From contig OZ219926.1 in NCBI GenBank assembly GCA_964291405.2, positions 4,640,001-4,704,000 of the forward strand: 64,000 nucleotides of DNA, read 5' to 3'. The position numbers and the translations under genes were made by a program. Positions 24,538 through 62,903 of the stretch are shown one piece after another. Within the stretch, counting starts at the first letter, position 1. Each line of letters begins with the position of its first letter. Below the pieces are notes generated by a model, which saw only the letters and a list, made by a program, of their open reading frames with translations, made no database searches and was not told where the DNA came from. This stretch comes from Thermodesulfobacteriota bacterium. Lineage in GTDB: Bacteria > Desulfobacterota > Binatia > Bin18.

Positions 24538-25137
24538 ATGGGACAGATTGAAGTCCTCAGTCCAATTGGCGAAGCGCAAGCCGGTGATCTGCCGCTTGCT
24601 CGACGAGAGGGGAGCCTGCGCGGGAAGACCATCGGCTTTCTGAATAACCGGAAGGCCAACGCCGGCCTGCTGCTCGAACAGGTGGAAGCGCTGCTGCACG
24701 AACGCTGCGGCGATTTCGCCGTTATCAAAGGTGAAAAAAACGCCTCGCTCGGCGCACCCAAGGAGGTCATGGCCCGCCTGTCCACCTGTGATGTGGTTGT
24801 CGCGGCCATAGGCGATTGAGGCTCGTGCACGTCGTGGGGTCTCCACGACACCATTGAACTGGAAAAGCAAGGCATTCCGACCGCCGTCATTTGCAGCGAC
24901 GAGTTTGCTCCGCTCGGCCGGGCCGAGTCCCGCACCCTGGGTATGAGCGGTGTACCCATTGCCGTGATTCCCCATCCCCTGGCCGGCAATACACCGCAGG
25001 TGGTACAGGCCAAAGCCGTAGCTGTGGTGGATGAAATTCTGGCCATTCTGACCCAGCCGGCAGAGCAGTTGGCCGACACGTATCGCGGGCGGTTTCTCAA
25101 GCCGATGGAGAAAAAGATCGAGCGGGTGTCGGCCTAA
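24538..25137 (+). CDS. UGSC-family selenoprotein (199 aa, Sec at codon 94)
   Basis: In-frame TGA at 24817 reads AIGD-U-GSCTSW; the frame stays open with family-typical ELEKQGIPT...PHPL; SECIS-like hairpin follows. Confidence 0.9.
24831..24849 (+). promoter_or_regulatory. Bacterial SECIS element
   Basis: GTCGTGG-GGTCT-CCACGAC hairpin starting 11 nt after UGA; the loop resembles the E. coli fdhF AGGUCU loop. Confidence 0.8.
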
Positions 25138-25214: not shown

Positions 25215-26300
25215 ATGGATTTCCAATCAGACCGAATCTCCCTGGACGACTCTCTCGAAACCGTCAACGATTGGTTTTACGACCAAGGCTGGACGGACGG
25301 TCTACCGATTATTCCACCTACACAAGAGCGGGTGGAAAAGATGCTGGCCTGGACGGACCGCGCTCCTCAAGACGTCCTGGGGCCGATACCGCCCAAATAC
25401 GGCCTTGCCACCCTGGAAAAATTAGCCGTAAATGCGGTCATGGCCGGCTGTGTGCCCGAATACTTTCCGGTCATTATTGCCGCGGTCGAGGCACTGCTTG
25501 AAGGCCCGTTCAATCTATATGGGGTTCAGAGCACCACCCACCCCTGCGCGCCGCTGCTGATTCTCAACGGCCCGATTGCGACGGAAATCGGCGTCAACTC
25601 GCGCTATAACGCGTTTGGCCAGGGCTGGCGGCCAAACGCCACGATCGGCCGAGCGATTCGCCTGGTCTTGCTGAATGTCGGCGGGGGAACGCCGGGTATG
25701 CTGGACCGCTCGACCCAGGGTCAGCCCTCAAAATACAGCTATTGTATTGCCGAGAACGAGGAAGAAAACCCATGGGGGCCACTGCACGTCGAACGGGGCT
25801 TTGCGGCCGAGACCAGCACGGTCACGGTGTGCGGAGCGGAGGGGCCGCATAATATCAACGACCATATCAGCAGTGCCGCGCCAGGGATTCTGACGACCAT
25901 CGCCAGCACCATGGCCGGTATGGGCTCGAATAACGCCTACGCGTTTGGTGAGCCGATTCTCGCGCTTGGACCGGAGCACGCCGAGATCCTGGCCCGAGAC
26001 GGCATCTCAAAAGACGACATCCGCACCTATGTGTTTGAGCACGCCCGGGTGCCGCGTGAACAATGGGAGGCGGGCGGTATGATCGGTATGGGGTTTACCC
26101 CCGATGACGCCTTTCCCGACGCGGACGCCATCCCGCTGATTCGCAAGCCGGAACGGCTCATGATTCTTGTCGTCGGCGGTCCGGGTCGCCACTCGTGCTG
26201 GATGCCCACGTTCGGGGCTATGACCCGCTCCGTGACCCGCCAGATTGCCCTCAAAGACGGCCGGCCGGCCACGTCCATTCAAGAGTTTCGTCATGCGTGA
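25215..26300 (+). CDS. UGSC-associated hypothetical protein (GWTDGLPIIPPT family)
   Basis: GWTDGLPIIPPT, AVNAVMAGC, LNGP, NATIGRA and AENEE; homologous to the C-terminal part of 58367-60070. Confidence 0.85.
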   Translation: MDFQSDRISLDDSLETVNDWFYDQGWTDGLPIIPPTQERVEKMLAWTDRAPQDVLGPIPPKYGLATLEKLAVNAVMAGCVPEYFPVIIAAVEALLEGPFNLYGVQSTTHPCAPLLILNGPIATEIGVNSRYNAFGQGWRPNATIGRAIRLVLLNVGGGTPGMLDRSTQGQPSKYSYCIAENEEENPWGPLHVERGFAAETSTVTVCGAEGPHNINDHISSAAPGILTTIASTMAGMGSNNAYAFGEPILALGPEHAEILARDGISKDDIRTYVFEHARVPREQWEAGGMIGMGFTPDDAFPDADAIPLIRKPERLMILVVGGPGRHSCWMPTFGAMTRSVTRQIALKDGRPATSIQEFRHA

Positions 26301-47305: not shown

Positions 47306-47308
47306 GAC

Positions 47309-47445: not shown

Positions 47446-47599
47446 CATCCGAATACGGCAGATATGGACGCATTCAGCGGGAGGTGTTTTTCAGATCGGA
47501 AGGATAGATGCCATCAATTAACGGTAATAAAGACTTGATAACGAACTGAATTAACGAAAATTTGGTTATTCCCATACGACCAACAGGAGAGAGACCTGA

Positions 47600-47870: not shown

Positions 47871-47872
47871 GC

Positions 47873-48949: not shown

Positions 48950-49063
48950 AACAGTACTCTAGCAAGAAGGCCAATACGAGAAAAGAAAATCTCACAGTAC
49001 CTAGACAATCCTCGGACAAATATGCTAACAGCACGCCCATACTATTGCTTTGCCTTGGACGGG

Positions 49064-49164
49064 AGAGCCGCCGGGCGACAAACCGGTCGACCCAAACAGG
49101 CTCTGTCAGGGCAAAAAGATAGTGAAGGCAGACCGCTTGGATCCAATTGTACGGACCGAGACGG
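49064..49164 (+). ncRNA. pan RNA motif-like leader (tandem hairpins with bulged adenosines) upstream of panBC
   Basis: CCG-CTTGG-A-TCC...GGA-CCGAG-A-CGG stem with two bulged As (49133-49164), preceded by a second bulged-A hairpin; panB leader context. Confidence 0.7.
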
Positions 49165-49301
49165 ATGGCAGAAAAGCTATACGACAGGGAAGAGCGACAG
49201 CGTGCGGTTCCGGCAGCAGCCCGCGTAGCCTCCACACCATTTCCCCTGTCTCGACGCCCTCCGACTGTGGTCCATGGAGAAACCGTGGAAGGAGGGACGA
49301 C

Positions 49302-50120: not shown

Positions 50121-50150
50121 GGCGTACCCTGAAGAATCGGAAACAGAGCT

Positions 50151-50993
50151 GTGCAGATTATTCAAACCGTTCGAGAGATGCAGCGTTGGTCGGAAGATCA
50201 GCGCCTGGAGCGCAAGACTGTGGCCTTTGTCCCCACCATGGGATTTCTGCACGAGGGCCATCTCAGCCTGGTGCGCGAGGCGAAGAATCGAGGCGACGTG
50301 GTTGTGGTCTCCATTTTCGTCAATCCCATGCAATTCAATCAGGCGTCTGATTTTGATAAATACCCGCGTAACGAGGACCAGGACGAACGTGCCCTGGAAG
50401 CATTGGGCACCGACGTGTTGTTCATGCCGCCGCCGGCTGAAATCTATCCCGATGGCTACCAGAGCGCGGTTGAGGTCGAGAAAGTCAGCCAGCCCTTATG
50501 CGGGGCCTTTCGTCCCGGCCATTTTCGGGGGGTGGCAACGGTGGTGGCCAAGCTGTTCAATATGGTCAAACCGCATTGTGCCCTGTTTGGCGAGAAAGAT
50601 TTCCAGCAGTGCGTTGTCATCAAGCGCATGGTCCAAGACCTGAACTTTGACATCGATATTGTCACCCTGCCAACAGTGCGCGAAGACGACGGCCTGGCCA
50701 TGAGTTCCCGGAATGCCCGGCTGAGTACGGCTGAAAGGGAGACGAGCCTGTGTGTGTCGAGCGCGCTCACGGCTGCCCAGGAACTGGTCTCCGGCGGTCA
50801 GTCCTCCGCGGCTGTTATTCTCCAGGCCGTGCAGCAGATATTAACCCAAAACGCCGAGGTGCGGGTTGAGTATGCCTCCCTGTGCCAGCCTGAAACGCTC
50901 GAAGAGGTGGAGCAGATATCCGGCCCCACCTTGTTGGCTATTGCGGTCTGGGTTGGCGAGGTCCGGCTGATTGATAACTGCGTGCTCCATTAG
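50151..50993 (+). CDS. panC: Pantoate--beta-alanine ligase
   Basis: PTMGFLHEGH, FVNPMQF, RPGHF, GEKDFQQ, MSSRN and RLIDN motifs. Confidence 0.97.
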   Translation: MQIIQTVREMQRWSEDQRLERKTVAFVPTMGFLHEGHLSLVREAKNRGDVVVVSIFVNPMQFNQASDFDKYPRNEDQDERALEALGTDVLFMPPPAEIYPDGYQSAVEVEKVSQPLCGAFRPGHFRGVATVVAKLFNMVKPHCALFGEKDFQQCVVIKRMVQDLNFDIDIVTLPTVREDDGLAMSSRNARLSTAERETSLCVSSALTAAQELVSGGQSSAAVILQAVQQILTQNAEVRVEYASLCQPETLEEVEQISGPTLLAIAVWVGEVRLIDNCVLH

Positions 50994-51008
50994 GCTCAGA
51001 GTTCGCGT

Positions 51009-51479
51009 ATGGCCAAACCGAAATCCGCCGAGAGAGCGATCTGCGTCAATCGCAAAGCACGGCACGATTATATCATCAACGAAACCATCGAGGCCGGGAT
51101 TGTGCTGAACGGCGGAGAGGTCAAATCGCTCCGGGACGGTCGGGCCAATCTCAAGGACAGCTATGGCCGGATCGACAAGGGCGAGGCGTTTTTATTGAAC
51201 GCGCATATCAGCGACTACAAACCGGCCCATTATTTCAACAGCGATCCCAACCGCAGGCGTAAGCTCCTCTTGCACAAAAAAGAAATCATGCGTCTGATGG
51301 GAAAAACAAAGGAGCAGGGATTGACCCTGGTTCCTCTGCGGCTGTACTTTAAGGAAGGTCGAGTCAAGGTTGAGTTGGCTTTGGCCAAGGGTAAACGGAC
51401 GTATGACAAGCGCGCTGCCATTCGCGAACGCGAGATGAAGCGCGATGTTCAGCGTGCCATGCATAGACGAACAGGCTAG
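51009..51479 (+). CDS. smpB: SsrA-binding protein
   Basis: NRKARHDY, EAGIVLNGGEVKS, RKLLLHKKEI and GKRTYDKR motifs. Confidence 0.97.
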   Translation: MAKPKSAERAICVNRKARHDYIINETIEAGIVLNGGEVKSLRDGRANLKDSYGRIDKGEAFLLNAHISDYKPAHYFNSDPNRRRKLLLHKKEIMRLMGKTKEQGLTLVPLRLYFKEGRVKVELALAKGKRTYDKRAAIREREMKRDVQRAMHRRTG

Positions 51480-51522
51480 GGGAGGTATGCTTTTCTCTGT
51501 GTGAGAGACACAACTGCGATAA

Positions 51523-51874
51523 GGGGGCGATCTGGTTTCGACGGGGGCTAGAAAGCCAAGGCTGCATGCCGGGGTTCTGTCCCGCCCGTAAAACGGACAG
51601 GCTGCAATTTAACTGCAGACGATTTTGATTACGCTCTTGCTGCCTAGAGCAGCTTGCGTCTTACCGATCCGCGCCCGTAGGGTCGGCTAAGGCGACATAA
51701 ATCGGGATAGGGCTCGCATCGTGCCGAAGGGTGTGCGCCCGAAACTCTACTTTGGCTGGTCTGAAGGCATCCTGCTCGTAGGAGGCCCGAGGATGAGATT
51801 AAAATACGAGCTACGCATTGTAGATGCCTTGAGTGGACTACTTTCGGACGCGGGTTCGATTCCCGCCGCCTCCA
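51523..51874 (+). ncRNA. ssrA: tmRNA; tag peptide (A)ADDFDYALAA at 51615-51647; CCA not encoded
   Basis: GGGGGCG...TTCGAC 5' end, GGACGCGGGTTCGATTCCCGCCGCCTCCA 3' end, resume codon GCA and YALAA*; adjacent to smpB. Confidence 0.96.
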
Positions 51875-51957
51875 TTCCGTCCTAATCCTTTCCCTTCCCG
51901 CCTGTTCTCCGATAATCCATTAACGATTTGTATTTGCAGGATTTTTTCTTATTCAAA

Positions 51958-52078
51958 GGCTTGCATGTTCCGTGCCCGCAGCGGGACCAAGAGTTGGATG
52001 CCGCGCGTCACGATCGACGGCAAACGCCACGATATCGGCCTGGGGGCCTATCCCGTGGTCAGTCTTGCGAAGGCGCGG
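51958..52078 (+). pseudogene. P4-like tyrosine integrase remnant, N-terminal arm-binding domain
   Basis: SGTKSW..RVTIDGKRHDIGLGAYPVVSLAKAR; frameshifted, no start, truncated; 84 bp after the tmRNA. Confidence 0.85.
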
Positions 52079-52110
52079 AGCCCCGGCTTTCTAGAGTGTC
52101 GAAGCCAATC

Positions 52111-53718
52111 CTAGTTACGCCCTTTCCGTGCATTTTTGCGCCGCATCTTCTTCGCCTTTTCGTCGAGCACGCGGTACACTATTGTGTACCGGTCGGAATA
52201 CACTTTTTCCATAAGCGGATCTCGGTCGGCAAGGGCAATGAACTTCCGATGTTTGTTGTCGGTAAAGGCGTATTCACATCCGAACCGCTGCAAAATCACC
52301 CTCGCCGGCAGACGCACCTTCCCCCTGGTGATGTCTTTCCAGCGTTTATAGCCCTCGGGGTCTTTGAGCCGCATGAAGTCGGGATCAAGCCCAACGATGT
52401 AGGTATTATGCGTATTAAAGAAAAACAGGCGGGGAAAGTCGTCCCAGTCGGTGTGAAACACGCGCGCCCCTTTGGGCGTGTTATGGGCTAACCACTCTGC
52501 TCCGCCCTTATACGCCGCAGACGGTGGGAGGCGGTGAATGTCCCGCCAGGCGGCTTGCACGGTGGCTTGCATGGCGGCAACAAGCAGGAGGCTTGCCAGC
52601 ATGAGCCCGCCAATTTTTCTCTCTGTCCAGGCAATAGAACCGACGTCCAGGGTCTTCACCCACTCCCGCGTTCCAACTGCTAAGAGCAGCACGGCAGCCG
52701 GCGGATAATATTCGACAAAACGGCGCGATTTGAACAACAGAAGGGCGTATAACGTGGCGGCTAAAAATAAGAAAAGCCGCGGGGCATCTTGGCGCCATTC
52801 CTCTCTGTTGGTCAAGAATATGGCGCTGCCATAGGCGAGGTGCGCTCCAAGCGACAGGCTCAGAAGATCCCATGAATTATAGGGACGCCACTCTCCCCCG
52901 ACCGATGTCGCATACTCCACCACGAACAGCTTAGGGACAATGTGGTCCCAGAGGAGGAGGACATTTTGCGGAAAGTAGGGATTGACGATCAGGCCGCAGG
53001 CGATCCCAATACCTGCTCCGAAGAGGAGAGGGTATTCGAAAGTGCCGTCGACGAGGTAGTGCGTCAGGAGACCGATCAGCACTAGGAGCAGGAGCAACGG
53101 GAAGGCATTATACGCCCACACAAACAGCATTGCCACGATCCCGAGAGCAACCGGCCGACGTTTCAGAATCAGATACATCGCTAGCAGTTGAAACGCCAAC
53201 CCCAGGCTCTGCCCCCGAGCCATACTCATCCGATACAGAAACGGGTGTGAGGACGCAAAGAGGACGAGCAGCCAGACAAATGGATAGCGCACCTGGTAGG
53301 CAACGAGGAAAAAATAGAACACACAGCAGGCAAAAACGGCGAGGGTCACCGCGGCCCATTTCGACGCCAAACCTAAATCGGTAAAGGCGGTGAAAGGGGC
53401 TTGCAGCACATGCAGCAGCATATGGCGGTCGCTGTAGCCGTGCTCATCCAGAATGGTAAGGGGCAACCAGGGGAACGGAAGCGGGAGCCCCTGCTGGAGC
53501 GTCAATTCTGCCATCTTGATATGATGGTATCCGTCGTTCCCCACGATATGCGGGCTGGCGAATTGGATGTAGGCGAGGAGGACCCCGGAGATCGCGATGG
53601 CGCTCACAACGTGGATGAGGGAGTGCCACTTCACCGCATGAAGAGCGCGGCTGACCAGAGCGGTCATCGACCGTGTACGCTTGGGGTGATGGGACGGAGG
53701 AGTTTCTGCCGCTGACAT
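52111..53718 (-). CDS. Polytopic membrane protein, GT-C/STT3-like glycosyltransferase candidate
   Basis: About 12 TM helices; NDGYHH after TM1, GGEW, SRRFVEY, and a C-terminal soluble domain with DWDDFP. Confidence 0.65.
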   Translation of the reverse strand: MSAAETPPSHHPKRTRSMTALVSRALHAVKWHSLIHVVSAIAISGVLLAYIQFASPHIVGNDGYHHIKMAELTLQQGLPLPFPWLPLTILDEHGYSDRHMLLHVLQAPFTAFTDLGLASKWAAVTLAVFACCVFYFFLVAYQVRYPFVWLLVLFASSHPFLYRMSMARGQSLGLAFQLLAMYLILKRRPVALGIVAMLFVWAYNAFPLLLLLVLIGLLTHYLVDGTFEYPLLFGAGIGIACGLIVNPYFPQNVLLLWDHIVPKLFVVEYATSVGGEWRPYNSWDLLSLSLGAHLAYGSAIFLTNREEWRQDAPRLFLFLAATLYALLLFKSRRFVEYYPPAAVLLLAVGTREWVKTLDVGSIAWTERKIGGLMLASLLLVAAMQATVQAAWRDIHRLPPSAAYKGGAEWLAHNTPKGARVFHTDWDDFPRLFFFNTHNTYIVGLDPDFMRLKDPEGYKRWKDITRGKVRLPARVILQRFGCEYAFTDNKHRKFIALADRDPLMEKVYSDRYTIVYRVLDEKAKKMRRKNARKGRN

Positions 53719-53786
53719 AAAAAATTCATTGAGCCCCGTACGCTACACTCCTATTCGGTCCCCCGCACGGCAATGACGGCACTCTC

Positions 53787-54752
53787 TTAGTCATCGTCAT
53801 CGTTTTCGTTGCCATTGTCGTTGTTGTTCTCATTCTCATTGTCGTTTTCGTTGCCATTGTCGTTGTTGTTCTCATTCTCATTGTCGTTTTCGTTGCCATT
53901 GTCGTTGCTGTTCTCATTCTCGTTCGTGTTCTTGTTGGTGTTGGCGTTCGTGTTCTCGTTCTGGTTCGTGTTCCCGTTCGTATTCTCGTTGGTGTCGGTA
54001 TTGGTGTTCGTATTTTCAAGACTGTCGCTCAGGCCATTCCGGTCAAGGTCGTCGTCGGGAAAGCCGTCCCGGTCGGCATCATTGTCGGCAAAACCGTCAG
54101 AATCCGTATCATCGTCCCGCACACCATCGTTGTCTTGGTCGGCCACAAAAGAAATCGCCGCGAGCTTATTGGAAGGCGGGTCATATTTGAGGACGGTCGT
54201 CAGTGATCGTCCACCGATTTCTATTCCCTCTACCAATACTTCCGTCTTGCCCACGATATCGAGCGTGGCTCCGCTCAGATCAATTTCAACGTTTCGTGGA
54301 TTTTCATCGCCCGGCGCATTGGACACCAGAAAGCGGACGCTGCGGCTCGCGGCGTCCCCGTTCATATCCACCGCTCTGACCGTCAGCCGGTGGACACCGT
54401 TTGTCAGCGGCCGTGCATTCCACCCGAGCGCGTATCCAGAGAATTTGGCGTCGGGGATATCGGGAAATGCATGGCCAACATCTATCCGTTCTCCACCATA
54501 GCCGGCGGGAGTGGGGCTTTGCCCGTCAAACGACACCTCCACGTAGTCAATCGGGGCGGTGATGCCGACCGCCCAGCCCAGGATATTGACCAGCCCGGAG
54601 ACGTGTTGCCCTTCTGTCGGATTATCAATGGCCAAGCGTGGTGGATCGGCCACCGCGCTTGAGAACCAGAGGAGGCTGCTCACCAGCCCGATTGCGACAT
54701 GCGTCTGCCAACACATGCGTACTCTCTTGCCGTCCTTTTTGCGCTTTGCCAT
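53787..54752 (-). CDS. Secreted protein: Ig-like domain, DxDxDG Ca-binding-type repeats and an alternating-Asn tail
   Basis: Signal peptide (SSAVA-D); Big-like domain (GWA...NGVHRLTVRAVD); DQDNDG/DTDSDG/DADRDG/DLDRNG; about 70-aa NxNxNx tail. Confidence 0.8.
   Translation of the reverse strand: MAKRKKDGKRVRMCWQTHVAIGLVSSLLWFSSAVADPPRLAIDNPTEGQHVSGLVNILGWAVGITAPIDYVEVSFDGQSPTPAGYGGERIDVGHAFPDIPDAKFSGYALGWNARPLTNGVHRLTVRAVDMNGDAASRSVRFLVSNAPGDENPRNVEIDLSGATLDIVGKTEVLVEGIEIGGRSLTTVLKYDPPSNKLAAISFVADQDNDGVRDDDTDSDGFADNDADRDGFPDDDLDRNGLSDSLENTNTNTDTNENTNGNTNQNENTNANTNKNTNENENSNDNGNENDNENENNNDNGNENDNENENNNDNGNENDDDD
53801..53920 (-). repeat. 42-bp coding tandem repeat, about 3 copies (NDNENENNNDNGNE)
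   Basis: CGTTTTCGTTGCCATTGTCGTTGTTGTTCTCATTCTCATTGT repeated at 53801, 53843 and 53885. Confidence 0.9.
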
Positions 54753-55130
54753 ACACCCTCCACGTCTTGGGTATGAGGAAAGTTTTCAATGGATTTTCCT
54801 GAGCCATATCTCATCCCTTCTCAGCACAGTGTCCCTGGAGTCGCAACCTGCTCTACATTTTTTCCTCAAAATTCAGAGGAGTATAACATAGGGGCTCCCC
54901 GCTCCCCTCCACTTTTGGTAATCAACCCGCGCGCAGACCGGGTGGGCTGTCCCTTTGGGGGGCTAGTGCGCCCCTCATAAACGCTGTTATGCGTAGCAGG
55001 TGGAAGGGAGGCTTAGATGTCAGCATAGGCAGTCGCGCGACGGTTGGCGAGCGAGCTGGGCTGGGCTCGCAAATCCCGCCATCGGGAGGAGTACGACCCC
55101 GAGTGCCCTTGAGGGGCTAGATTTGCCGCC

Positions 55131-55253
55131 TTACCCCCATCGCACAAGCGGCACGACCTTGTCGTCTCCCTGACTCAGATACACTGTCCATTGCTCCATA
55201 AGCCCACGCCGGCGCTCAAACAAGTCTGAGCGAGCATACGCCGCCCCCACCGT
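55131..55253 (-). pseudogene. P4-like tyrosine integrase remnant, C-terminal end
   Basis: Manual translation TVGAAYARSDLFERRRGLMEQWTVYL...KVVPL*, including the catalytic Tyr motif. Confidence 0.85.
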
Positions 55254-55367
55254 TTTTCAAGACAGTACACGTCTCTTCGAGGAGACGTGTGTCCTATAGC
55301 CTCTTTTCATTATGGGCGCTCGGAGCGCCGCCTGGCACTGACTCTGGGAATGCCTCAAATATAGAGC

Positions 55368-56438
55368 CTAATCGGCCCTGCGGGACTCCAGTCTTGGCAG
55401 GATGTGTTCGCCGAATGTATCGATGTCGTGCTCAAAGTCGGGAAAGGCGAACATACAGGCCGCCACTTTGGCTTCGGCGTAAATCCTGTCCAGGTAAGAG
55501 GCCACTTTCCGGTAAGAGCCCACCAAGGTCGGCAAGCCCATGAACATGGATTTACGTTTCAGGCTCTCGGACATGCCTTCGGACTTGTCCAATTCTGCCT
55601 GGCCGACAAGGTTGGCGATGGCCACCTCATCGGCGCCGGCGACGATATGCTCGAAACGTTTTTCCGCTTCCGCGTCCGTCTCCGCGGCGAAGACATTGAA
55701 CAGGGCAATGGTGCCCACGTCACGGCCGAGCTTTCTGGCGTGGTCCTGAAGCTTTGACGTGATGGCGCTGAACGTCTTGATATCCGCTTCGATGTCGTGC
55801 GTGTTGCCGCCGGCGATGACGAAGTTCCGGTCAGCCATTTCGGCGGTGTAGCGAATGCCACGATCCGACTGACCGGCACACACCAGGGGAATGCGCTTTG
55901 ACGGCACCGGCTTGATCTCGGCGTCGTTCATTGTGAAGTATGTGCCCTTGAAATTGCTCCTGCCGGTGTCCCAGAGGTCCGTCAGGATCGTGACATACTC
56001 GGTCGCATAGTCGTAGCGGGTTTCGTAATGTTCGTCGCCCGGCCACAAGCCCATTTGATTGAACTCATCCTTATACCAGCCGGAAACGATATTGAGCCCG
56101 AAACGCCCTGGGCAGACGGCTTCGATGGTCGCAGCCATGCGGGCCGCCACCGCTGGATGCATGGACAGGCTGGTGACCGAAGGGAACAGATGGATGGTCT
56201 TGGTCACCGGAGCCAATGACGCGGTTAAGGTAAAGGAGTCAAGGGCATAGTCCCAATATTTCGTTTCTCCACCAAAGCCTCGGAATTTCACCATGGATAG
56301 GGCAAACTCGAATCCCAGCGCTTCGCATTTCAAAGTGACGGCCCGGTTCAGTTCCCACGTGGGCCACGTGGGCGGTATATTGCGTGAAATGATAAAACCG
56401 CCCTTGGCGATGGGCAGGAAAATACCAATTTCCATCAT
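55368..56438 (-). CDS. RutA-like flavin-dependent monooxygenase (LLM class)
   Basis: FALSMVKFRGFGGET, GRFGLNIVSGW, QMGLWPGD..Y..RYDY.TEY and CAGQSD closely follow E. coli RutA. Confidence 0.85.
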   Translation of the reverse strand: MMEIGIFLPIAKGGFIISRNIPPTWPTWELNRAVTLKCEALGFEFALSMVKFRGFGGETKYWDYALDSFTLTASLAPVTKTIHLFPSVTSLSMHPAVAARMAATIEAVCPGRFGLNIVSGWYKDEFNQMGLWPGDEHYETRYDYATEYVTILTDLWDTGRSNFKGTYFTMNDAEIKPVPSKRIPLVCAGQSDRGIRYTAEMADRNFVIAGGNTHDIEADIKTFSAITSKLQDHARKLGRDVGTIALFNVFAAETDAEAEKRFEHIVAGADEVAIANLVGQAELDKSEGMSESLKRKSMFMGLPTLVGSYRKVASYLDRIYAEAKVAACMFAFPDFEHDIDTFGEHILPRLESRRAD

Positions 56439-56699
56439 GGGAACGGTCTCCCTTCCATCATCTATCCTAGCAACGCCATTTTGCATTGGATAGTCCCGGA
56501 AAACTGTTTGTGACAGGAGGGGCATAGCGTGGCGCTGATGCAGGTACGGCGGGCTACCGGAGCTCTATACACAACTGCCGGACGGCTGTCCCTAGTAAAA
56601 GCACGAGAGCGGGCGCTCCTCTATGCGAAAAATCGACACCAGAAGAGGTAGACGAGGTAAAGTCAACGTTTTAATGTACGAAGGCTATGAGGGAGGACC

Positions 56700-58241
56700 A
56701 TGATGAGTTCCGATAAAACCGGCGGCCCCGTAGGCGCGCCGACAGACAGCGAGCTGCGCGCGGCCGCGCAGGCTTTATTTCTCGATCTGGATCGGGGCGA
56801 CTTGGATTTCTTCGCAAGCGCGATGGACAGGTTCGTCGACGACTACAATGCCATCGACGCCATGGACGCGCCGACCCTGCCGACGAAATACCCGCGCGGT
56901 GAGGGGTATCGCCCGACCGGCGATGAGAACCGTTACGGTGCCTGGCAGTGGAAGTGTTCGATTAAAGGCGCAGCGTCCGGCAAGCTCGTCGGCAAACGCG
57001 TCGCCATCAAGGACAACATCAGCGTTGCGGGCATGCCTATGCTGAACGGCTCGGCGCTGTATGAAGGCTTTATCGCCGACGAAGACGCGACCGTCGTGAC
57101 CCGCGTGCTCGATGCCGGCGGCGAAGTGGTCGGCAAGGCCGTGTGCGAAAACTTCTGCTATTCCGGCGGCAGCCATACGTCGGCGTCGGGTCCGGTGAGG
57201 AACCCGCGCAACCCCGACTTCATGACCGGCGGCTCGTCGAGCGGCTGTGCCGCATTGATTCTGACGGGTGAATGCGACATGGCGATCGGCAGCGACCAGG
57301 GCGGCTCCGTACGCATGCCGAGCTCGTGGTCTGGCTGCGTCGGGATCAAGCCGACTCACGGCCTCGTGCCCTATACCGGCGCCGGACCCATCGAGCACAC
57401 GATCGATCACCTCGGGCCGATGGCTGCCTCGAGCGTCGATTGCGCCCTGTTGCTCGAAGTCATCGCGGGCTATGACGAGGGCCGCGACCCGCGTCAGGTG
57501 GCGGCGTTGCAGGCAAAACCCTATAGCGAACTCGTCGGCCAGGGGATCGAGGGGCTGCGGATCGGTATCGTGCGCGAAGGCTTCGGCGCGCCGGGCTCGG
57601 AAGCGGACGTGGATGAATCCGTGATGGCCGCGGCCCGGCGGCTGCAGGAAGCCGGTGCCGTGGTCGAAGAAATCTCCATCCCCATGCACACCAAGGCCCT
57701 CAAGATCATGTTCGCAGGTTCCGTCGACGGGACGCTGTCAACGTGGAGTGATCAGGGTCCGGCGGGCGGAAACGCCGATGGCCACCACCCACTCGGAGCG
57801 ATCCGCTTCTTTCAGGAGGCACGCAAAACCCGGGCGGCAGAGCTGCCGGACATGGCCAAGACCGTGCTGTTGTTCGCGCAGGTCATGCGCGCACGTTACG
57901 GCAACTATTATTCCGCCAAGGCACAAAACCTCGTCCGCACGCTACGCGCCGCCTACGATCGCGCGTTCGATACATGCGACCTGCTGGTGATGCCGACGAC
58001 CGTGATGAAAGCCCACCGGATCCCGCCACCGGACGCATCGCGTGAAGTCGTCATGGGGCTCACGCTCGACATGATCGGCAACACCGCGCCCTTCGATGCG
58101 ACGAGCCACCCGTCGATGAGCGTGCCGACCGGTCTGTCGAACGGCCTGCCCGTCGGCATGATGATCACGGGACGCTACGGTGAGGACGACGTCGTGCTGC
58201 GCGCCGGGCATGCGTTCGAGACGTTGCGTGGACCGTTCTGA
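56700..58241 (+). CDS. Amidase (amidase signature family)
   Basis: AIKDN, GGSSSG and GSDQGGSVRMPS (Ser-cisSer-Lys triad). Confidence 0.93.
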   Translation: MMSSDKTGGPVGAPTDSELRAAAQALFLDLDRGDLDFFASAMDRFVDDYNAIDAMDAPTLPTKYPRGEGYRPTGDENRYGAWQWKCSIKGAASGKLVGKRVAIKDNISVAGMPMLNGSALYEGFIADEDATVVTRVLDAGGEVVGKAVCENFCYSGGSHTSASGPVRNPRNPDFMTGGSSSGCAALILTGECDMAIGSDQGGSVRMPSSWSGCVGIKPTHGLVPYTGAGPIEHTIDHLGPMAASSVDCALLLEVIAGYDEGRDPRQVAALQAKPYSELVGQGIEGLRIGIVREGFGAPGSEADVDESVMAAARRLQEAGAVVEEISIPMHTKALKIMFAGSVDGTLSTWSDQGPAGGNADGHHPLGAIRFFQEARKTRAAELPDMAKTVLLFAQVMRARYGNYYSAKAQNLVRTLRAAYDRAFDTCDLLVMPTTVMKAHRIPPPDASREVVMGLTLDMIGNTAPFDATSHPSMSVPTGLSNGLPVGMMITGRYGEDDVVLRAGHAFETLRGPF

Positions 58242-58366
58242 GCGCTTGTGGAACGCCGCCGACGGATCAGCCTCGGCGCCGGGCGGCCGCCAGGAAGAGA
58301 CCCGTTAATGACGGGTTCGCAGCACTCCGGTATTCATGACCGCAGGTCTAATCAGGGGAGGGGGCG

Positions 58367-60070
58367 ATGAGTTCACAGAGCGAAATTCACTACGAAGTCG
58401 TCTGGCCGAAATCGCCGCTCGCGGTACAGACACGGCCGCTCGCCGAGCGGCTCGACACGCTCGAGGGCAAACGCGTCGGGTTCCTGTGGGATTTCCTGTT
58501 TCGCGGTCACGAGCTTTTTCCGGTCATCGAAAAAGAGCTGCGGAACCGCTTCACCGGGATCGAAATCGTCGGGTACGACGATTTCGGCAACACGCACGGG
58601 GGCGATGAAGCCGAGGTGATTGCCGCGCTTCCCGACCGGTTGCGCGACCGCCGTATCGACGCGGTTGTCTCCGGGGTGGGATGTTGAGGGAGTTGTACGC
58701 CCGCCGTGATGCGGGCGTCGGTTGTCGCGGAAGCCGCCGGGGTGCCGTCGGTGTCGCTGGTCTGCGAAGGTTTCGAACGCCAGGCGGCGGCCACCGGTCG
58801 CGGCACGGGATTCGACGGGCTTCCCCTCGGCGTGCTGCGCGGGCACGTGGACGCGCAGAGCTACGACGAGATGATCGGTTCCCTGCGTGACGCGACGCTC
58901 GACCAGATCATAGCCGGCCTCACCAGCGCACCGGTCGTCGGTGAGGGCGCTGCCGCCGAGCCCGTACCACTGGATGTCGTTGCCACGGGAACGATTGACG
59001 AGATCAACGAACGTTTCACCGTTGAGGGGTGGAGCGATGGGCTGCCGGTCATTCCGCCGACCCAGGACCGGGTCGCGGCGTTCCTCGCCACCCTGAACGA
59101 TGATCCCTGGAGAGTAATCGGCACCGCCCGGCCCTCGGGCCGCGAGATCACGGTCTGGTCGGTTGCCGTCAATGCCGTCATGACCGGTTGTCAGCCCCGG
59201 CACCTGCCCGTGCTCGTGGCGCTCGCCGAAATCATCGCCGATCCCGGTTACGGCGTCGAGCACTCGGGCAACACCACCGGGGCCGACGCCCTCGTCATCG
59301 TGAATGGGCCGTCGATGGCCGCACTCGGCTTCAACACAAGGCAGGGTGTCCTTCGGGAGGGCGCCCACGCGAATACCAGCGTCGCCCGATGGCTCCGGCT
59401 GTACCTGCGCAATGTCTGTGGATTCACCGCCGACGAACATGACAAGGCCACGTTTGGTAACAGCACCCGGGTGGTATTGGCCGAAGATGAGCAGACGCTG
59501 ACCGATATCGGCTGGCAACCACTGAGTGCGGAGTTCGGGTTCGGGCGGGGCGACGACGTGGTCACCATGGCCCGCATGAACAGCGGTCTTATCCTCGGCA
59601 GCGTCTTCGGATCGACGGGCGATGCGATCGTGCCGTATCTGGCCGACGGCCTCGTTCGAGTCAGTGGCTGGGACCTCGCGCACATCTACGGGCTCGGACA
59701 GGGCCATTATCGACCGCTGCTGATACTTTCCCCGATACTGGCGCGCACCTTCGCCCGATCCGGCTGGGGCAAGGATGACGTCAAGCAGGCGCTGTTCATA
59801 AAGGCACGGCTGCCGGCGGCCAGGTTCGAGCAGCTCATCGGCGAGTGGAGCAACATCGATGCGGGGCGCCGCACCCTGTTCGAACTGGCGACCGAGGGGC
59901 TGGTCCCGCCGGTCTTCGGCGAGTCCAACGACCCGCAACGCCTCGTGCCGATCGTGACCGAGGCCTCGAAGTTTCTGATCGCCGTTGCAGGCGACCCGAA
60001 CCGGAACAATGCTTACGTCATGAGTAACGATGGCCCGCACGGTGACTGGACGGCCAAAGCCGTACCATGA
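58367..60070 (+). CDS. UGSC-family selenoprotein fused to a DGLP-family domain (567 aa, Sec at codon 107, CUGSC motif)
   Basis: GVGC-TGA-GSCTP; ORF-track fragments 58367-58687 and 58706-60070 are in the same frame; GWSDGLPVIPPT and AVNAVMTGC downstream. Confidence 0.88.
58697..58718 (+). promoter_or_regulatory. Bacterial SECIS element
   Basis: Perfect 8-bp stem ACGCCCGC-CGTGAT-GCGGGCGT starting 9 nt after UGA. Confidence 0.75.
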
Positions 60071-61713
60071 ACCCCTACGCCCTCGGCATCATCACGAGCA
60101 TCGTGATCTATCTGCTGATCGGAAACTACGCCGGCCGGCGGGTCAAAGATGTCGATGATTATTTCGTTGCGGGGCGTGACAGCTCGACCTTGCTGATAGC
60201 CGGCACCCTGGTCGCCAGCTACCTGAGCACCGCCGCGTTCCTGGGTGAAACCGGGTTTACGTATCAAGGGCACGGCGCGATTCTCCTGATCCTGGTCGGG
60301 GTCAATATCGCCGGCTACGTCCTGGGCGCAGCGTTCTTCGGCCGCTATGTCAGACGCAGCCAGGCGATAACCGTCGCCGAGTTCTTCGGCAAGCGCTTCA
60401 ACAGTCGGCGCGTTCAGGCCGCCGCGGGCGTGACGGTTATCGGGGGTGTCACCGCCTATTTGCTGGCGGTGACCCAGGGGGCATCACTGGCGATATCGGA
60501 AGTGATGCATATTCCCTATGACGTGACTTTGCTGATCGTCTGGATCGGTTACACCTCGTTCACGATCTATTCCGGCTCGCGAGGCGTGGTGTTGACGGAT
60601 ACCGTGATGTACCTGCTGTTCACCTTCGTCGGTTTCCTCTCTCTCTACTATATCCTGGGTGAGACCGGTGGATGGTTCGCCACCATCGAGTCCCTGGCTG
60701 TATACGAAGCCAAGCCGGCAATCATCTCCTGGCACGGTGTCGTCGGATCCGATTCGCGCTGGCAAACGCCGTTCGATTCAGTTGGCTGGGGTCTCGTGCT
60801 CGGGATCGCGTGGGCATTCACGATTGCCGTGAGCCCGTGGCAATCGAGCCGGTATCTCATGGCGAAAAACGAGCACACCGTGATGCGATCGGCCTGCTTC
60901 GCGAGCGCGTCGGTCGTGGTGCTGTATTGGGCGTTGGTGGTGTCCGCTGCCGCCGTCAATCTCCTCAACCCGGATATCGAGCCCAACGAAAGGGCAATGA
61001 TCTGGGCGGCTTTCAACGCCATGCCGACCTATGCGGGCGTGTTGTTCATGACCGGTGTGGTGGCTGCCGCCCTGTCCTCGGCGTCGACGTTTCTCTCCTT
61101 GATCGGATTCAGCGCGACGAACGATCTGGTCGAGATGCGTGAGGGCGATGAACGTCGCAAGCTCCGATTGAGCCGCTCCACTATGCTGGCGGTCGGGATC
61201 GTCATCTTGCTCATCGCGTCTTTCCAACCGCCCGCGATCATGATGATCAGCTATTTTGCGGCGACGCTGTTTTCATCGTCGTGGGGACCGGTGGCCTTCA
61301 TGAGCGTGTGGAGTACACGCATCACGGCAGACGGAGCTTTTTGGGGGATCGTCGTCGGCTTCGTCGGCAACCTGATCCCGAAGATCCTGTCGGTATTCGA
61401 GGTGATATACCTGCCGGTTTATCTCGATCCATTCGTGATTGGCATCGTATTGAGCCTCATCACGATCCTACTCGTATCGCGCAATGGCCGGGTCACCCAG
61501 GAGGAATATCTTTATCACATGCAGATACATCAAACGCCCTCCACTGAATACGACCCTTCACTGACCGCCAGAACCTTGTGGTTCGCGAGGGGTTTGATGG
61601 TCTGTGGCGCAGCTGTGACGATACTCATGATCGTGTTTTACGTGTTGCCGTACGAACGTGCGGTCGGGCACGAGGCCGACTCCCTGAGTCTGGCCCGGTG
61701 GTTCTTGTCATGA
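60067..61713 (+). CDS. Sodium:solute symporter family protein
   Basis: DYFVAGR, SYLSTAAFLG, GVVLTD and AAALSS motifs; about 13-14 TM helices; ATGA overlap with the upstream gene. Confidence 0.92.
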   Translation: MNPYALGIITSIVIYLLIGNYAGRRVKDVDDYFVAGRDSSTLLIAGTLVASYLSTAAFLGETGFTYQGHGAILLILVGVNIAGYVLGAAFFGRYVRRSQAITVAEFFGKRFNSRRVQAAAGVTVIGGVTAYLLAVTQGASLAISEVMHIPYDVTLLIVWIGYTSFTIYSGSRGVVLTDTVMYLLFTFVGFLSLYYILGETGGWFATIESLAVYEAKPAIISWHGVVGSDSRWQTPFDSVGWGLVLGIAWAFTIAVSPWQSSRYLMAKNEHTVMRSACFASASVVVLYWALVVSAAAVNLLNPDIEPNERAMIWAAFNAMPTYAGVLFMTGVVAAALSSASTFLSLIGFSATNDLVEMREGDERRKLRLSRSTMLAVGIVILLIASFQPPAIMMISYFAATLFSSSWGPVAFMSVWSTRITADGAFWGIVVGFVGNLIPKILSVFEVIYLPVYLDPFVIGIVLSLITILLVSRNGRVTQEEYLYHMQIHQTPSTEYDPSLTARTLWFARGLMVCGAAVTILMIVFYVLPYERAVGHEADSLSLARWFLS

Positions 61714-61835
61714 GCGGCGAGCTGATTCTCTCGATAGGGTACGGCGGTATCCTCTTCCTGTGTGGCGCGTTCGCCTACTGGTGGACCAAGCGCGCCTACG
61801 GCGAACGTCACGAGGGGCCGGATCAACACTCGTAG
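61710..61835 (+). CDS. Small single-TM protein (41 aa) coupled to the symporter
   Basis: ATGA overlap; MSGELILSIGYGGILFLCGAFAYWWTKR. Confidence 0.55.
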   Translation: MSGELILSIGYGGILFLCGAFAYWWTKRAYGERHEGPDQHS

Positions 61836-61865
61836 CCCGCGAAAAACCCCGGCCAGATACACGCT

Positions 61866-62135
61866 ATGAAAAAGCTGACCGCCTCAGAGGTGAAGAAAAA
61901 TTGGTTCCGAGTGCTTGACGAAGTCGCTGCCGGGGAAGTTATTGTCCTGGAGCGGAAGGGGCAGCGGCTCATTTTACGCAGGGAAGACAAAACAGTTACG
62001 AAATCGAAACAACAGTTTCCCGACTATACAGGTCTCCTGCGGATTCCTGACGCCGATCAAGCTGACCGGTGGAGTTGGGACTGGCGGGGGAAAAGACAAG
62101 ACCTCGTGTCGGTCTCTCGAAAAAAAAGGCAATAG
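61866..62135 (+). CDS. Phd/YefM family antitoxin with no adjacent cognate toxin
   Basis: LTASEVKKNWFRVLDEVAAGEVIVLERKG. Confidence 0.8.
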   Translation: MKKLTASEVKKNWFRVLDEVAAGEVIVLERKGQRLILRREDKTVTKSKQQFPDYTGLLRIPDADQADRWSWDWRGKRQDLVSVSRKKRQ

Positions 62136-62143
62136 CTTCATGC

Positions 62144-62507
62144 TCACTCAAAAGGATTCAAAATCTCCAAATCGCTGATCCAAAGAAAATCTTTGGTATT
62201 TCTCGTCACGAGTGTACGCTGATGGATAAGAGCTGTCCCTGCTACTAGGGCATCGCCCAAGGTCATCCTCCGGACTCTTGGCGAAGCTGCACGGCCCGCT
62301 CTATGATCCCTTGTGATATCGGGAGAATGGCCGACGAGGCAAAGAATTCCTCGAAAAGACCTTGGTCTGCCTTCGTGAGATTATGGTAGCCGAGCACTTC
62401 AACATAGCTCACGGCTGAGATCGCGGGCGTATGCTCTGCAATAAACTGTCGTAGATTCTCATGCTCCGGCTGAGCAGCATAGATAATGATATTGCTGTCG
62501 ATGGCAC
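62144..62507 (-). pseudogene. PIN-domain (VapC) toxin with two frameshifts
   Basis: IDSNIIIY...SYVEVLG in one frame, MTLGDALVAGTAL...LVTRNTKDF in another; the GTG start is out of frame by 1 nt. Confidence 0.85.
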
Positions 62508-62782
62508 TACGCCTCTCGGTCTGGAAGAGGTCTATCCTGGCGCTGTTCTCTTTCCCAATCTAGAGGATCAATGTCCTGTGGAAACGTGCTCAATCGTGCG
62601 ATCTTCTCCAGTGCGTTTACCATGCGTTGGCCGCTATCACTGTCGGATGCTGGAGCTAGCAATTTCTCCTGCAAAATCGTCACTTGAACAGGAATAGGCC
62701 GCTCTTCGGGAAGAGTCCGCGGCCTTCCGTCGCTCCATTCCAATTGGTTGCCGCGAAGGGTTGCTTTATACGTTGTCGGCAT
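62507..62782 (-). CDS. Putative antitoxin of the VapC pseudogene
   Basis: TYKATLRGNQLEW...DPLDWEREQRQDR; its stop overlaps the toxin start. Confidence 0.75.
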   Translation of the reverse strand: MPTTYKATLRGNQLEWSDGRPRTLPEERPIPVQVTILQEKLLAPASDSDSGQRMVNALEKIARLSTFPQDIDPLDWEREQRQDRPLPDREA

Positions 62783-62903
62783 GACTCTACACTACCCCGT
62801 TCAAGAGAGAAAATCGAGTCTTACACAAAAAGAAACCGGGGTTCCTGTCTTGTCACATCTCTCTATCCTTCGATGATTTCAGGCCGAACGCAAAAGTACA
62901 AAC

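What the first reader, a model, noticed from the sequence alone, without database searches (positions are those of the whole stretch)
55368..61835. RutA-like monooxygenase clustered with an amidase, a CUGSC selenoprotein and an SSS transporter: possible selenium-dependent variant of a Rut-type pathway
Seen: a close RutA homolog is transcribed divergently from amidase > 567-aa Sec fusion protein > sodium:solute symporter > small TM protein, the last three joined by ATGA overlaps. Established: RutA opens pyrimidine rings and normally sits with RutB (isochorismatase-fold amidohydrolase), RutCDEF and the RutG permease, none of which is here. Inference: the amidase-signature enzyme and the SSS permease replace RutB and RutG, and the functionally uncharacterised UGSC/DGLP protein does a redox or catabolic step on the imported N-heterocycle or amide. 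This would give a metabolic context for an orphan selenoprotein family.
Basis: partly seen in the sequence, partly recalled or inferred. Interest (0 to 1): 0.8.

Follow-up and report, generated by a model that had tools for sequence, protein, structure and literature searches.

The report
Amidase–selenoprotein–transporter operon beside tmRNA
The genes are real and the 567-residue protein is a true selenoprotein, but the cluster is a lineage-specific mosaic at a tmRNA insertion hot spot, not a selenium-dependent Rut pathway; the selenoprotein belongs to a large orphan family whose two domains are always paired.

Summary
The LLM, amidase, 567-aa UGA-containing fusion, SSS permease and 41-aa membrane protein lie at the stated coordinates, with both ATGA overlaps. 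Selenocysteine reading is well supported: TGA in 80 of 80 relatives, a conserved hairpin with one compensatory pair, and selA, selB and tRNA-Sec in the genome.

The Rut reading fails. The LLM scores below the RutA cut-off and forms a sister clade to RutA. No RutA or RutB passes its cut-off in the genome. The LLM is an accessory gene: it is present in 5 of 10 close relatives, at three positions. Its 39 orthologues elsewhere never sit beside an amidase, UGSC or SSS gene.

The region lies directly after a tmRNA gene, and one relative has tmRNA followed by SSS with nothing between. Amidase plus selenoprotein (GC 0.65) is an inserted two-gene module, seen again in one gammaproteobacterial MAG. In 71 other UGSC-fusion loci there is no amidase or SSS.

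New here: the C-terminal "DGLP" domain has no known fold, and it is paired with a UGSC Sec domain in 8 of 8 own-genome loci and 29 of 29 phylum loci. The substrate remains unknown.

The parts
51523..51874 (+). tmRNA gene (ssrA). Synteny with relatives breaks immediately after its 3' end.
   Evidence: ARAGORN; synteny maps
51875..55238 (.). 3.4-kb insert specific to the window lineage. It holds a 49-aa integrase-arm-like remnant (51965-52111), a 535-aa ORF and a 321-aa Big_7 ORF. A copy of the last ~11 nt of the tmRNA, with the sequence that follows the tmRNA in relatives (55239-55356), lies just past its end.
   Evidence: integrase arm match is weak, E 1e-3 to 6e-3
55368..56525 (-). RutA-like FMNH2-type luciferase-like monooxygenase. 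It is an accessory, relocating gene. The likely true start is near 56438.
56700..58241 (+). Amidase-signature enzyme (NF005565 subfamily), GC 0.647. First gene of the inserted two-gene module.
58367..60070 (+). 567-aa selenoprotein, GC 0.651. It has an N-terminal UGSC domain (about 58367-58936) and a C-terminal 'DGLP' domain of no known family (58964-60067).
58685..58687 (+). UGA read as selenocysteine (residue 107, motif C-U-G-S-C)
58697..58718 (+). SECIS-like hairpin. The core stem pairs 58699-58704 with 58711-58716, and the loop is 58705-58710.
60067..61713 (+). Sodium:solute symporter family permease, GC 0.587. It is the resident flank of the hot spot and is present without amidase or selenoprotein in one relative.
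61710..61835 (+). 41-aa membrane protein that travels with the SSS gene (73% identical after the 85% SSS of L283)
24538..25137 (+). Second UGSC selenoprotein gene in the window, stand-alone, 199 aa, TGA at 24817-24819
25215..26300 (+). Stand-alone DGLP-domain paralogue, 30% identical to the fusion's C-domain, directly after the stand-alone UGSC gene

Best explanation
SHOWN. The cluster is a mosaic built at the insertion hot spot after the tmRNA gene.
- The resident genes are the SSS permease and its 41-aa partner.
- A high-GC two-gene module, amidase followed by the UGSC/DGLP selenoprotein, was inserted between the tmRNA and the permease in the ancestor of a narrow Binatia clade.
- The RutA-like monooxygenase is a separate, dispensable cargo gene that entered or moved independently.
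- The selenoprotein is a genuine Sec protein. It belongs to a very large family in which a UGSC domain (Rossmann/flavodoxin-like fold, Sec at a strand-to-helix turn) is always coupled, fused or adjacent in either order, to a 'DGLP' domain of unknown fold. That domain carries a nearly invariant Cys (C275).

INFERRED. In the window lineage the selenoprotein's stop codon came to overlap the permease start. Amidase, selenoprotein, permease and the small protein would then form one transcription unit.

INFERRED. The DGLP domain is the substrate-binding catalytic part. The UGSC domain is its built-in selenol/thiol redox relay, forming a selenosulfide with C110 or C275 that cellular thiol reductants recycle. 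In this operon the enzyme would act on the acid or amine that the amidase releases from an amide imported by the permease. The substrate is unknown.
For: Hot spot:
- The tmRNA gene is at 51523-51874.
- Relative L285 is colinear with window 45861-51874 and 60064-61864, with only about 455 bp between these blocks and no amidase, UGSC or LLM.
- In L010 the amidase block starts 22 nt after the tmRNA. In L012 and L015 the order is tmRNA, amidase, selenoprotein, LLM, the ancestral SSS leader, SSS.
- GC is 0.647 and 0.651 for amidase and selenoprotein, 0.587 for SSS, 0.561 for LLM and 0.585 for the window.

Module:
- Amidase followed by selenoprotein occurs in 10 of 10 close relatives found with the amidase, and in 1 of 69 other amidase loci (L156).

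Selenoprotein: see the observation check.

Domain coupling:
- 59 of 104 diverse C-domain relatives carry a UGSC domain, and one carries a ferredoxin-thioredoxin-reductase catalytic domain instead.
- 8 of 8 C-domain loci in the own genome have an adjacent or fused UGSC gene with TGA. So do 29 of 29 loci from other genomes of the phylum.
- The motifs D-G-x-P-x-x-P-P-T and A-x-N-x-x-M-A-G-C are at least 90% conserved across 104 sequences.
- The whole-protein model has pLDDT 84.8 and pTM 0.87.

Transcription, weak evidence: one RNA-library contig spans the amidase-selenoprotein gap (58112-58615, run X16). Contigs cannot show a single transcript.
Against: - The amidase and permease link does not generalise. 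0 of 71 other UGSC-fusion loci have an amidase or SSS. 0 of 69 other SSS loci have a UGSC gene.
- The ATGA overlap is not universal even within the clade. L012 and L015 have 1.5 kb between the two genes, L017 has a 38-nt gap and L088 a 3-nt gap.
- The redox-relay mechanism rests on domain co-occurrence and motif conservation only. No structural relative was found for the C-domain: best VIA Z is 6.3, and the best Foldseek hit has E 5e-4 at TM 0.23. The U107-C275 distance could not be measured.
- The hairpin's folding energy alone is not unusual (z 0.03).
- A tblastn screen of 29 phylum loci found no enrichment of hydrolases or transporters near UGSC/DGLP pairs. Amidase was found at 2 loci against 1.6 expected, Amidohydro_2 at 0 against 4.1, and MFS and SSS at 0.
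Confidence: 0.55

Rival explanations
1. The RutA-like monooxygenase, amidase, selenoprotein and SSS permease form one Rut-like N-heterocycle catabolic pathway. The amidase stands in for RutB and the SSS for RutG.
For: - When the LLM orthologue is present in the clade, it is always within about 3.5 kb of the cluster (window plus 5 of 5 relatives).
- An Agrobacterium vitis pAt locus annotated rutA lies next to an amidase (29% identical to the window's), a flavin reductase and an isochorismatase.
- One own-genome paralogue has the gene order DGLP, UGSC, Amidohydro_2, LLM, Amidohydro_2.
- Near relatives of the amidase in L154 are flanked by other LLMs.
Against: - The LLM scores below the RutA cut-off and falls in a separate clade.
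- No RutA or RutB passes its cut-off in the genome.
- The LLM is absent from 5 of 10 relatives that keep amidase, selenoprotein and SSS. It has no orthologue elsewhere in the 4 genomes checked.
- It occupies three positions, once splitting the selenoprotein from the SSS.
- 0 of 39 LLM orthologues elsewhere have these neighbours.
- LLM is an immediate neighbour of the amidase family in only 4 of 133 flanking ORFs.
- The genome holds about 154 LLM-like places, roughly one per 32 kb, so proximity is cheap.
- The LLM is on the opposite strand.
Confidence: 0.1
2. Pure hitch-hiking. All genes between the tmRNA and the permease are unrelated island cargo, and even the amidase and the selenoprotein share no pathway.
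For: - The region is a hot spot with a different content in nearly every relative.
- UGSC fusions elsewhere have no constant neighbour. The commonest is a divergent Lrp/AsnC regulator, seen in 13 of 135 flanking ORFs from 71 loci.
- Neighbours of the amidase family vary as well.
Against: - Amidase and selenoprotein share strand, composition (GC 0.647 and 0.651) and a 125-nt spacer.
- They stay together in 10 of 10 relatives despite rearrangements around them.
- They are adjacent again in an unrelated gammaproteobacterial MAG, at 78% and 67% identity (L156).
Confidence: 0.2
3. The selenoprotein is a general thiol-redox or antioxidant protein, as is often assumed for UxxC proteins. It would have no dedicated small-molecule substrate.
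For: - It has a UxxC motif.
- Passages read in PMC2398784 call the family redox-type with a likely Trx-like fold. Passages read in PMC13188914 list it among uncharacterised families.
- It has no conserved metabolic neighbours.
Against: - The N-domain models as a Rossmann/flavodoxin-like fold, matched at VIA Z of about 10-11 to generic alpha/beta folds, not specifically as thioredoxin.
- It is obligatorily coupled to a 370-aa conserved domain (8 of 8 and 29 of 29 loci).
- The pair is expanded into 8 paralogous pairs in one genome and into tandem arrays in others. That pattern is typical of substrate-diversified enzymes.
Confidence: 0.15

Closest known systems
UGSC-containing selenoprotein and the 'UGSC/Unknown_1' fusion (Zhang and Gladyshev, PLoS Genet 2008, PMC2398784; passages read)
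   Same: Same UGSC motif with Sec and the same two-domain fusion. It matches Pfam PF24696. The function is still listed as unknown in the 2026 review PMC13188914 (passages read).
   Different: The paper's Figure S1 is a supplement that I could not see, so identity of 'Unknown_1' with the DGLP domain is inferred. As far as the passages I read go, these points are not in that paper: the obligatory pairing in split form in either gene order, the 8 pairs in one genome, the FTR-domain variant, and the amidase/SSS operon.
Rut pyrimidine pathway (rutABCDEFG, E. coli b1006-b1012)
   Same: The LLM's best solved relative is RutA (5WAN, E 4e-102). A hydrolase and a permease lie nearby.
   Different: The LLM is below the equivalog cut-off and in a sister clade. 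There is no RutB, C, D, E or F nearby, whereas annotated operons have them adjacent. The LLM is on the opposite strand and is dispensable.
Glycine and D-proline reductase selenoprotein B (GrdB, PrdB)
   Same: Both have a UxxC Sec motif in a substrate-specific reductase that works with a partner catalytic protein. This is a resemblance in logic only; the GrdB and PrdB mechanism is recalled, not tested here.
   Different: There is no sequence match (Pfam at E up to 10 gave nothing for the C-domain), and no PDB sequence match was found.
Genomic islands integrated at tmRNA (ssrA) genes
   Same: The variable DNA starts at the tmRNA 3' end. There is a duplicated 3'-end segment and an integrase-arm-like remnant. 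A relative has an empty site. GC is deviant.
   Different: No intact integrase is present. The amidase-selenoprotein block has no recognisable att repeat of its own. The cargo is metabolic.

Membership tests
RutA (TIGR03612 equivalog) | HMM score at or above the curated cut-off (498.3 bits) | tested here: not met
   394.6 bits
RutA (TIGR03612 equivalog) | Falls inside the clade of RutA proteins encoded in rut operons | tested here: not met
   The window LLM and 10 orthologues form their own clade (99/99). It is sister (84/81) to the clade of E. coli, Moraxella, Falsirhodobacter and A. vitis (99/100). The tree has 21 rows.
Rut pathway | rutB-F genes adjacent, or at least present in the genome | tested here: not met
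   None lies in the cluster. The best RutB score in the genome is 96.4 bits against a cut-off of 378. RutC-F were not searched genome-wide.
Luciferase-like monooxygenase superfamily | PF00296 domain | tested here: met
   152 bits against a cut-off of 27.9
UGSC family | Pfam PF24696 match and a U/C-G-S-C motif | tested here: met
   99 bits against a cut-off of 25, residues 11-186; motif C-U-G-S-C
UGSC family (NCBIfam NF041046 equivalog, stand-alone ~147 aa) | Score at or above 125 bits | tested here: not met
   44 bits. The fused form is outside this narrow model.
Bacterial selenoprotein | In-frame UGA conserved in relatives, a downstream hairpin, and selA, selB and tRNA-Sec in the genome | tested here: met
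   selD was not searched. Incorporation of Se is not testable here.
Amidase signature family | PF01425 and NF005565 above their cut-offs | tested here: met
   295 bits and 658 bits. Catalytic residues were not inspected.
Sodium:solute symporter family | PF00474 above its cut-off; TIGR00813 above its cut-off | tested here: inconclusive
   Pfam is met (97.8 bits against 22.8). TIGR00813 scores 116.8 bits against 184, which is not met. No substrate-specific model is met.
tmRNA-targeted genomic island | Insert abutting the tmRNA 3' end, a duplicated target segment, an integrase, and an empty site in a relative | tested here: inconclusive
   Abutment, empty site (L285) and repeat are seen. Only a 49-aa integrase-arm-like remnant is present, with weak matches.

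The most novel reading that the evidence does not exclude
UGSC plus DGLP is a widespread, obligatorily two-part selenoenzyme class with a new catalytic fold. The profile search found 4300 clusters at 50% identity, and one genome holds 8 pairs. The class would carry out a selenol-driven reductive or group-transfer step on small carboxylates or amines in aerobic heterotrophs. The Binatia amidase-selenoprotein-permease operon would then be the first case that names its feeding reaction, namely amide hydrolysis of an imported compound.
Probability: 0.25. Interest if true: 0.8.

Novelty: new member of a known kind. Interest (0 to 1): 0.45.

Why it matters
UGSC proteins ranked among the most abundant selenoprotein families in the GOS ocean survey. 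They had 255 sequences, fifth by count in the part of Table 2 that I read (PMC2398784), and they are still listed as uncharacterised in 2026 (PMC13188914).

This locus does not tie them to pyrimidine breakdown. It does give three usable handles:
- The family's real unit is a UGSC redox domain plus a conserved 370-aa partner domain of unknown fold, fused or adjacent.
- There is one compact, apparently co-transcribed context (amidase, selenoprotein, permease) that can be cloned and screened.
- One genome has eight paralogous pairs, which allows comparative work.

It is also a clean example of how a tmRNA hot spot can place unrelated genes together so that they look like a pathway.

Tried and rejected
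- Fold of the C-domain. Foldseek on the whole model gave only generic alpha/beta hits to the N-domain. VIA-wide on the whole model covered only residues 29-191. For the C-domain alone, the best VIA Z was 6.3 (encapsulin) and the best Foldseek hit was class-I fumarate hydratase at E 5e-4 with TM 0.23. Toblerone-fold cyclic amide hydrolases scored probability 0.3 or less. All of these are within noise.
- PDB sequence and profile searches gave 0 hits. Pfam at E up to 10 gave 0 hits for the C-domain.
- Rfam gave nothing relevant in 54500-62500. The promoter and terminator scan was not above its shuffles.
- A 'hydrolase plus transporter' theme was suggested by the own-genome paralogues: Amidohydro_2 and LLM, MFS and PLP decarboxylase, MFS and lactonase, cyclase, cupin, alpha/beta hydrolase. 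It did not hold in 29 other genomes by tblastn. These families are also abundant in this genome (63 Amidohydro_2-like, 154 LLM-like and 23 amidase-like places). Single-sequence tblastn is insensitive, so this is a weak negative.
- In those 29 loci the recurring neighbours were AMP-binding enzymes (5), SDR (5) and CoA-transferase (3). This is too weak to name a pathway.
- My first ORF picker failed in high-GC loci and was replaced by a GC3-based one.
- Three 'neighbours' of paralogues F, G and H were antisense artefacts over UGSC genes.
- RNA-library contigs show that the sequence is present in metatranscriptome libraries of four studies. They cannot show transcription, level or strand.
Full report
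**1. What is there**

The ORF list and translations with the Pfam and NCBIfam scans confirm the five genes.
- A luciferase-like monooxygenase (LLM) lies at 55368-56525 on the minus strand.
- An amidase-signature enzyme lies at 56700-58241. NF005565 scores 658 bits against a cut-off of 545.
- A reading frame at 58367-60070 is open only if TGA at 58685-58687 is decoded. It gives 567 aa with the motif GVGC-U-GSC and a Pfam UGSC domain at residues 11-186.
- An SSS-family permease lies at 60067-61713.
- A 41-aa hydrophobic ORF lies at 61710-61835.

Both ATGA overlaps were read in the DNA. Relatives of the LLM align from its residue 30 or 31, and the upstream extension contains stops in two relatives. 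The true start is therefore probably near 56438.

**2. The selenocysteine reading is sound**

- All 80 of 80 related loci fetched from species-representative genomes have an in-frame TGA at the same motif. Most of these loci are from Acidimicrobiia, at 59-71% identity. Nine are from Candidatus Binatia, at 93-95%.
- The top hits of the sequence search cover 77-80% of the query, the part that follows the Sec codon, which suggests gene calls begun after the TGA.
- Twelve bases after the TGA starts a hairpin at 58697-58718. On 75 distinct sequences its six core pairs are formed in at least 74. Five pairs never vary although they include third codon positions. One pair changes G-C to A-U on both sides in 3 sequences. 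Sliding the partner by 1-3 columns drops pairing from 86% to 26-51%.
- The folding energy by itself is not unusual (z 0.03).
- The genome has selA, selB and a tRNA-Sec next to selA.

**3. The monooxygenase is RutA-like but not RutA, and it is not a fixed member of the cluster**

Family placement:
- It scores 394.6 bits on TIGR03612 against a cut-off of 498.3.
- It is 42-46% identical to the annotated RutA proteins listed from the plasmid search, where all 113 matching records are below 60%.
- Its best solved relative is E. coli RutA (E 4e-102).
- In a 21-row maximum-likelihood tree the window LLM and ten orthologues form a clade with 99/99 support. That clade is separate from the clade of RutA proteins encoded in rut operons (99/100), and the two are sisters at 84/81. 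The Binatia sequences nest among Proteobacteria.
- No RutA or RutB passes its cut-off in the genome.
- Annotated rut loci in E. coli, Moraxella and Falsirhodobacter have rutB, rutC and rutD beside rutA.

Linkage:
- Of 10 close Binatia relatives that carry the amidase, selenoprotein and SSS, 5 have the LLM orthologue at 89-96% identity.
- Two have it upstream of the amidase, as in the window. Two have it between the selenoprotein and the SSS. One has it downstream of the small membrane gene.
- In the 4 LLM-less genomes that I searched whole, the best LLM is only 32-47% identical. The fifth was not searched.
- Thirty-nine orthologues at 74-85% identity in Rhodospirillaceae, Gammaproteobacteria, Planctomycetota, Myxococcota and others have no amidase, UGSC or SSS gene within 7 kb (0 of 39). 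Their neighbours vary.
- The own genome holds about 154 LLM-like places, so an LLM within a 12-kb window is expected about 31% of the time.

**4. Why the genes sit together: a tmRNA hot spot**

- A tmRNA gene ends at 51874.
- One Binatia relative (L285) is colinear with window 45861-51874 and again with 60064-61864. Only about 455 bp lie between these blocks, and there is no amidase, selenoprotein or LLM.
- In L010 the amidase block begins 22 nt after the tmRNA.
- In L011 and L016 the LLM lies between the tmRNA and the amidase.
- In L012 and L015 the order is tmRNA, amidase, selenoprotein, LLM, a stretch homologous to L285's SSS leader, then SSS.
- The window carries a further 3.4-kb insert (51875-55238). 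It ends at a copy of the tmRNA's last ~11 nt and starts with a 49-aa ORF weakly like integrase arm domains (E 1e-3 to 6e-3).
- Position 60063/60064 is a recurrent breakpoint, seen in L285, in L012 and L015, and in RNA-library contigs.
- GC is 0.647 and 0.651 for amidase and selenoprotein, 0.587 for the SSS, 0.561 for the LLM and 0.585 for the window.

I read this as follows. The SSS with its 41-aa partner is resident, a pair also seen in a gammaproteobacterial MAG at 85% and 73% identity. Amidase plus selenoprotein is an inserted module. The LLM is independent cargo. The ATGA join of selenoprotein and SSS is a secondary deletion product, because L012, L015, L017 and L088 lack it.

**5. How far the amidase-selenoprotein-permease link extends**

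- A Pfam census of the 135 immediately flanking ORFs of those 71 loci gives Lrp/AsnC regulators 13, LLM 5, HAD 4, AMP-binding 3 and Rieske 3. Neither amidase nor SSF is among the 25 families shown of 117.
- Of 69 amidase relatives outside the clade, one (L156, a gammaproteobacterial MAG, amidase 78%) has a UGSC fusion (67%) directly downstream, after two acyl-CoA-dehydrogenase-fold genes.
- The census of 133 ORFs flanking the amidases is led by trypsin/PDZ proteases (13), AMP-binding enzymes (10) and ABC ATPases (9). LLM appears 4 times and SSF is not in the top 25.
- Of 69 SSS relatives outside the clade, none has a UGSC gene.
- The two-gene module therefore recurs once. The four-gene string is confined to one clade.
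- In a sample of 301 genomes of the phylum, the one other genome of the same genus has no orthologue of the fusion. Its best score is 153 bits against 692 for the window's gene. This fits recent acquisition.

**6. What the selenoprotein is**

- The fusion was noted in 2008 as 'UGSC/Unknown_1' (PMC2398784, passages read; its figure is a supplement that I could not see). The family is still listed as uncharacterised in 2026 (PMC13188914, passages). Two literature searches found 9 and 8 papers, none with a function.
- The AlphaFold model of the whole protein is confident (pLDDT 84.8, pTM 0.87).
- The N-domain is a generic Rossmann/flavodoxin-like alpha/beta fold (VIA Z about 10-11). The Sec lies between strand 99-105 and helix 110-123.
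- The C-domain modelled alone (pLDDT 83.3) has no convincing structural relative and no Pfam or PDB sequence match.
- A profile of the C-domain finds 4300 representatives at E up to 1e-3, of which 2749 are at 1e-10 or better. They include Sec-truncated forms, Cys forms (CGSC or CGAC), stand-alone forms of 350-400 aa and double-length forms.
- Of 104 of these that I scanned (the listed hits of 340 to 900 aa, of the best 150 listed), 59 carry UGSC. One carries a ferredoxin:thioredoxin-reductase catalytic domain instead. Apart from one weak ACR_tran match, no other Pfam family appears.
- Across these 104 the motifs D-G-x-P-x-x-P-P-T and A-x-N-x-x-M-A-G-C are at least 90% conserved. The second motif contains Cys275 of the window's protein.

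**7. The two domains are always together**

- The own genome has 8 C-domain loci. One is the fusion. Seven are stand-alone genes, each with a stand-alone UGSC gene carrying an in-frame TGA directly beside it, in either order. One such pair lies in this window at 24538-25137 and 25215-26300.
- In 29 loci from 29 other genomes of the phylum, 29 have a UGSC domain with TGA on the same strand within about 600 bases of the C-domain match.
- Several genomes hold tandem arrays.
- Obligatory coupling, the alternative fusion to a disulfide-reductase domain, and the conserved Cys lead me to infer that the DGLP domain is catalytic and the UGSC domain is its redox relay. This is inference. No distance, chemistry or substrate was tested.

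**8. Context clues for a substrate are weak**

- Own-genome paralogues are flanked by Amidohydro_2 enzymes and an LLM, by MFS transporters, a PLP decarboxylase, an SMP-30-type lactonase, a cyclase-family protein, a cupin and an alpha/beta hydrolase.
- These families are numerous in this genome, and a tblastn screen of the 29 other loci showed no enrichment.
- AMP-binding enzymes (5 of 29 loci), SDR (5) and CoA-transferases (3) recur there. AMP-binding enzymes also recur near Acidimicrobiia fusions and near amidases. With the Lrp/AsnC regulators, this hints at carboxylate or amino-acid-like substrates and no more.

**9. Expression**

- Near-identical DNA is held by sponge and other marine metagenome runs.
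- Contigs of four metatranscriptome libraries cover parts of the LLM, amidase, selenoprotein and SSS at 90-100% identity.
- One contig spans the amidase-selenoprotein spacer. Another shows the alternative join of selenoprotein to LLM.
- Contigs cannot prove transcription.

**Verdict**

What remains is a lineage-specific amidase-selenoprotein-permease operon at a tmRNA hot spot, and a clearer definition of an abundant orphan selenoenzyme family.

Noticed in passing
window 24538-25137 and 25215-26300: A second UGSC selenoprotein gene lies here. It is stand-alone, has its TGA at 24817 and is followed by a hairpin-capable stretch. A stand-alone DGLP-domain gene (30% identical to the fusion's C-domain) follows it directly. 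Neighbours are two nitroreductase-family genes and a YchF GTPase.
   Followed up: yes
window 51523-55356: A tmRNA gene (tag ADDFDYALAA) is followed by a 3.4-kb insert. The insert holds a 49-aa integrase-arm-like remnant, a 535-aa ORF with no family and a 321-aa Big_7 ORF. It is bounded by a repeat of the tmRNA 3' end.
   Followed up: partly
own genome C3: 686573-688159, 1785913-1787444, 1888300-1889919, 2511910-2513525, 3630408-3632001, 4181302-4182900: Six further split DGLP/UGSC-Sec pairs are present, making eight pairs in one 4.9-Mb genome.
   Followed up: partly
protein P0257: In this protein a DGLP-domain homologue is fused to a ferredoxin:thioredoxin reductase catalytic-chain domain in place of a UGSC domain.
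   Followed up: partly
window 61866-62900: An 89-aa ORF (61866-62135) and the DNA after it vary between close relatives. The ORF looks antitoxin-like to my eye, but this was not tested with any tool.
   Followed up: no
L359 (Agrobacterium vitis pAt, 430662-433854): A gene annotated rutA sits beside an amidase, a flavin reductase, an isochorismatase and a nitrilase-type hydrolase. This is a non-canonical Rut-like cluster. Its LLM is a long branch in the RutA clade.
   Followed up: partly
L013 11900-11990; L285 5543-5620; window 55239-55300: The LLM module carries on its stop side the hairpin-containing sequence that normally follows the tmRNA gene. This holds even where the LLM lies elsewhere (L013). 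It suggests movement by recombination at att-like sequence.
   Followed up: partly
own genome, whole: About 154 LLM-like, 63 Amidohydro_2-like, 51 CoA-transferase-III-like and 23 amidase-like places were found by tblastn. This is a strongly expanded catabolic repertoire.
   Followed up: no
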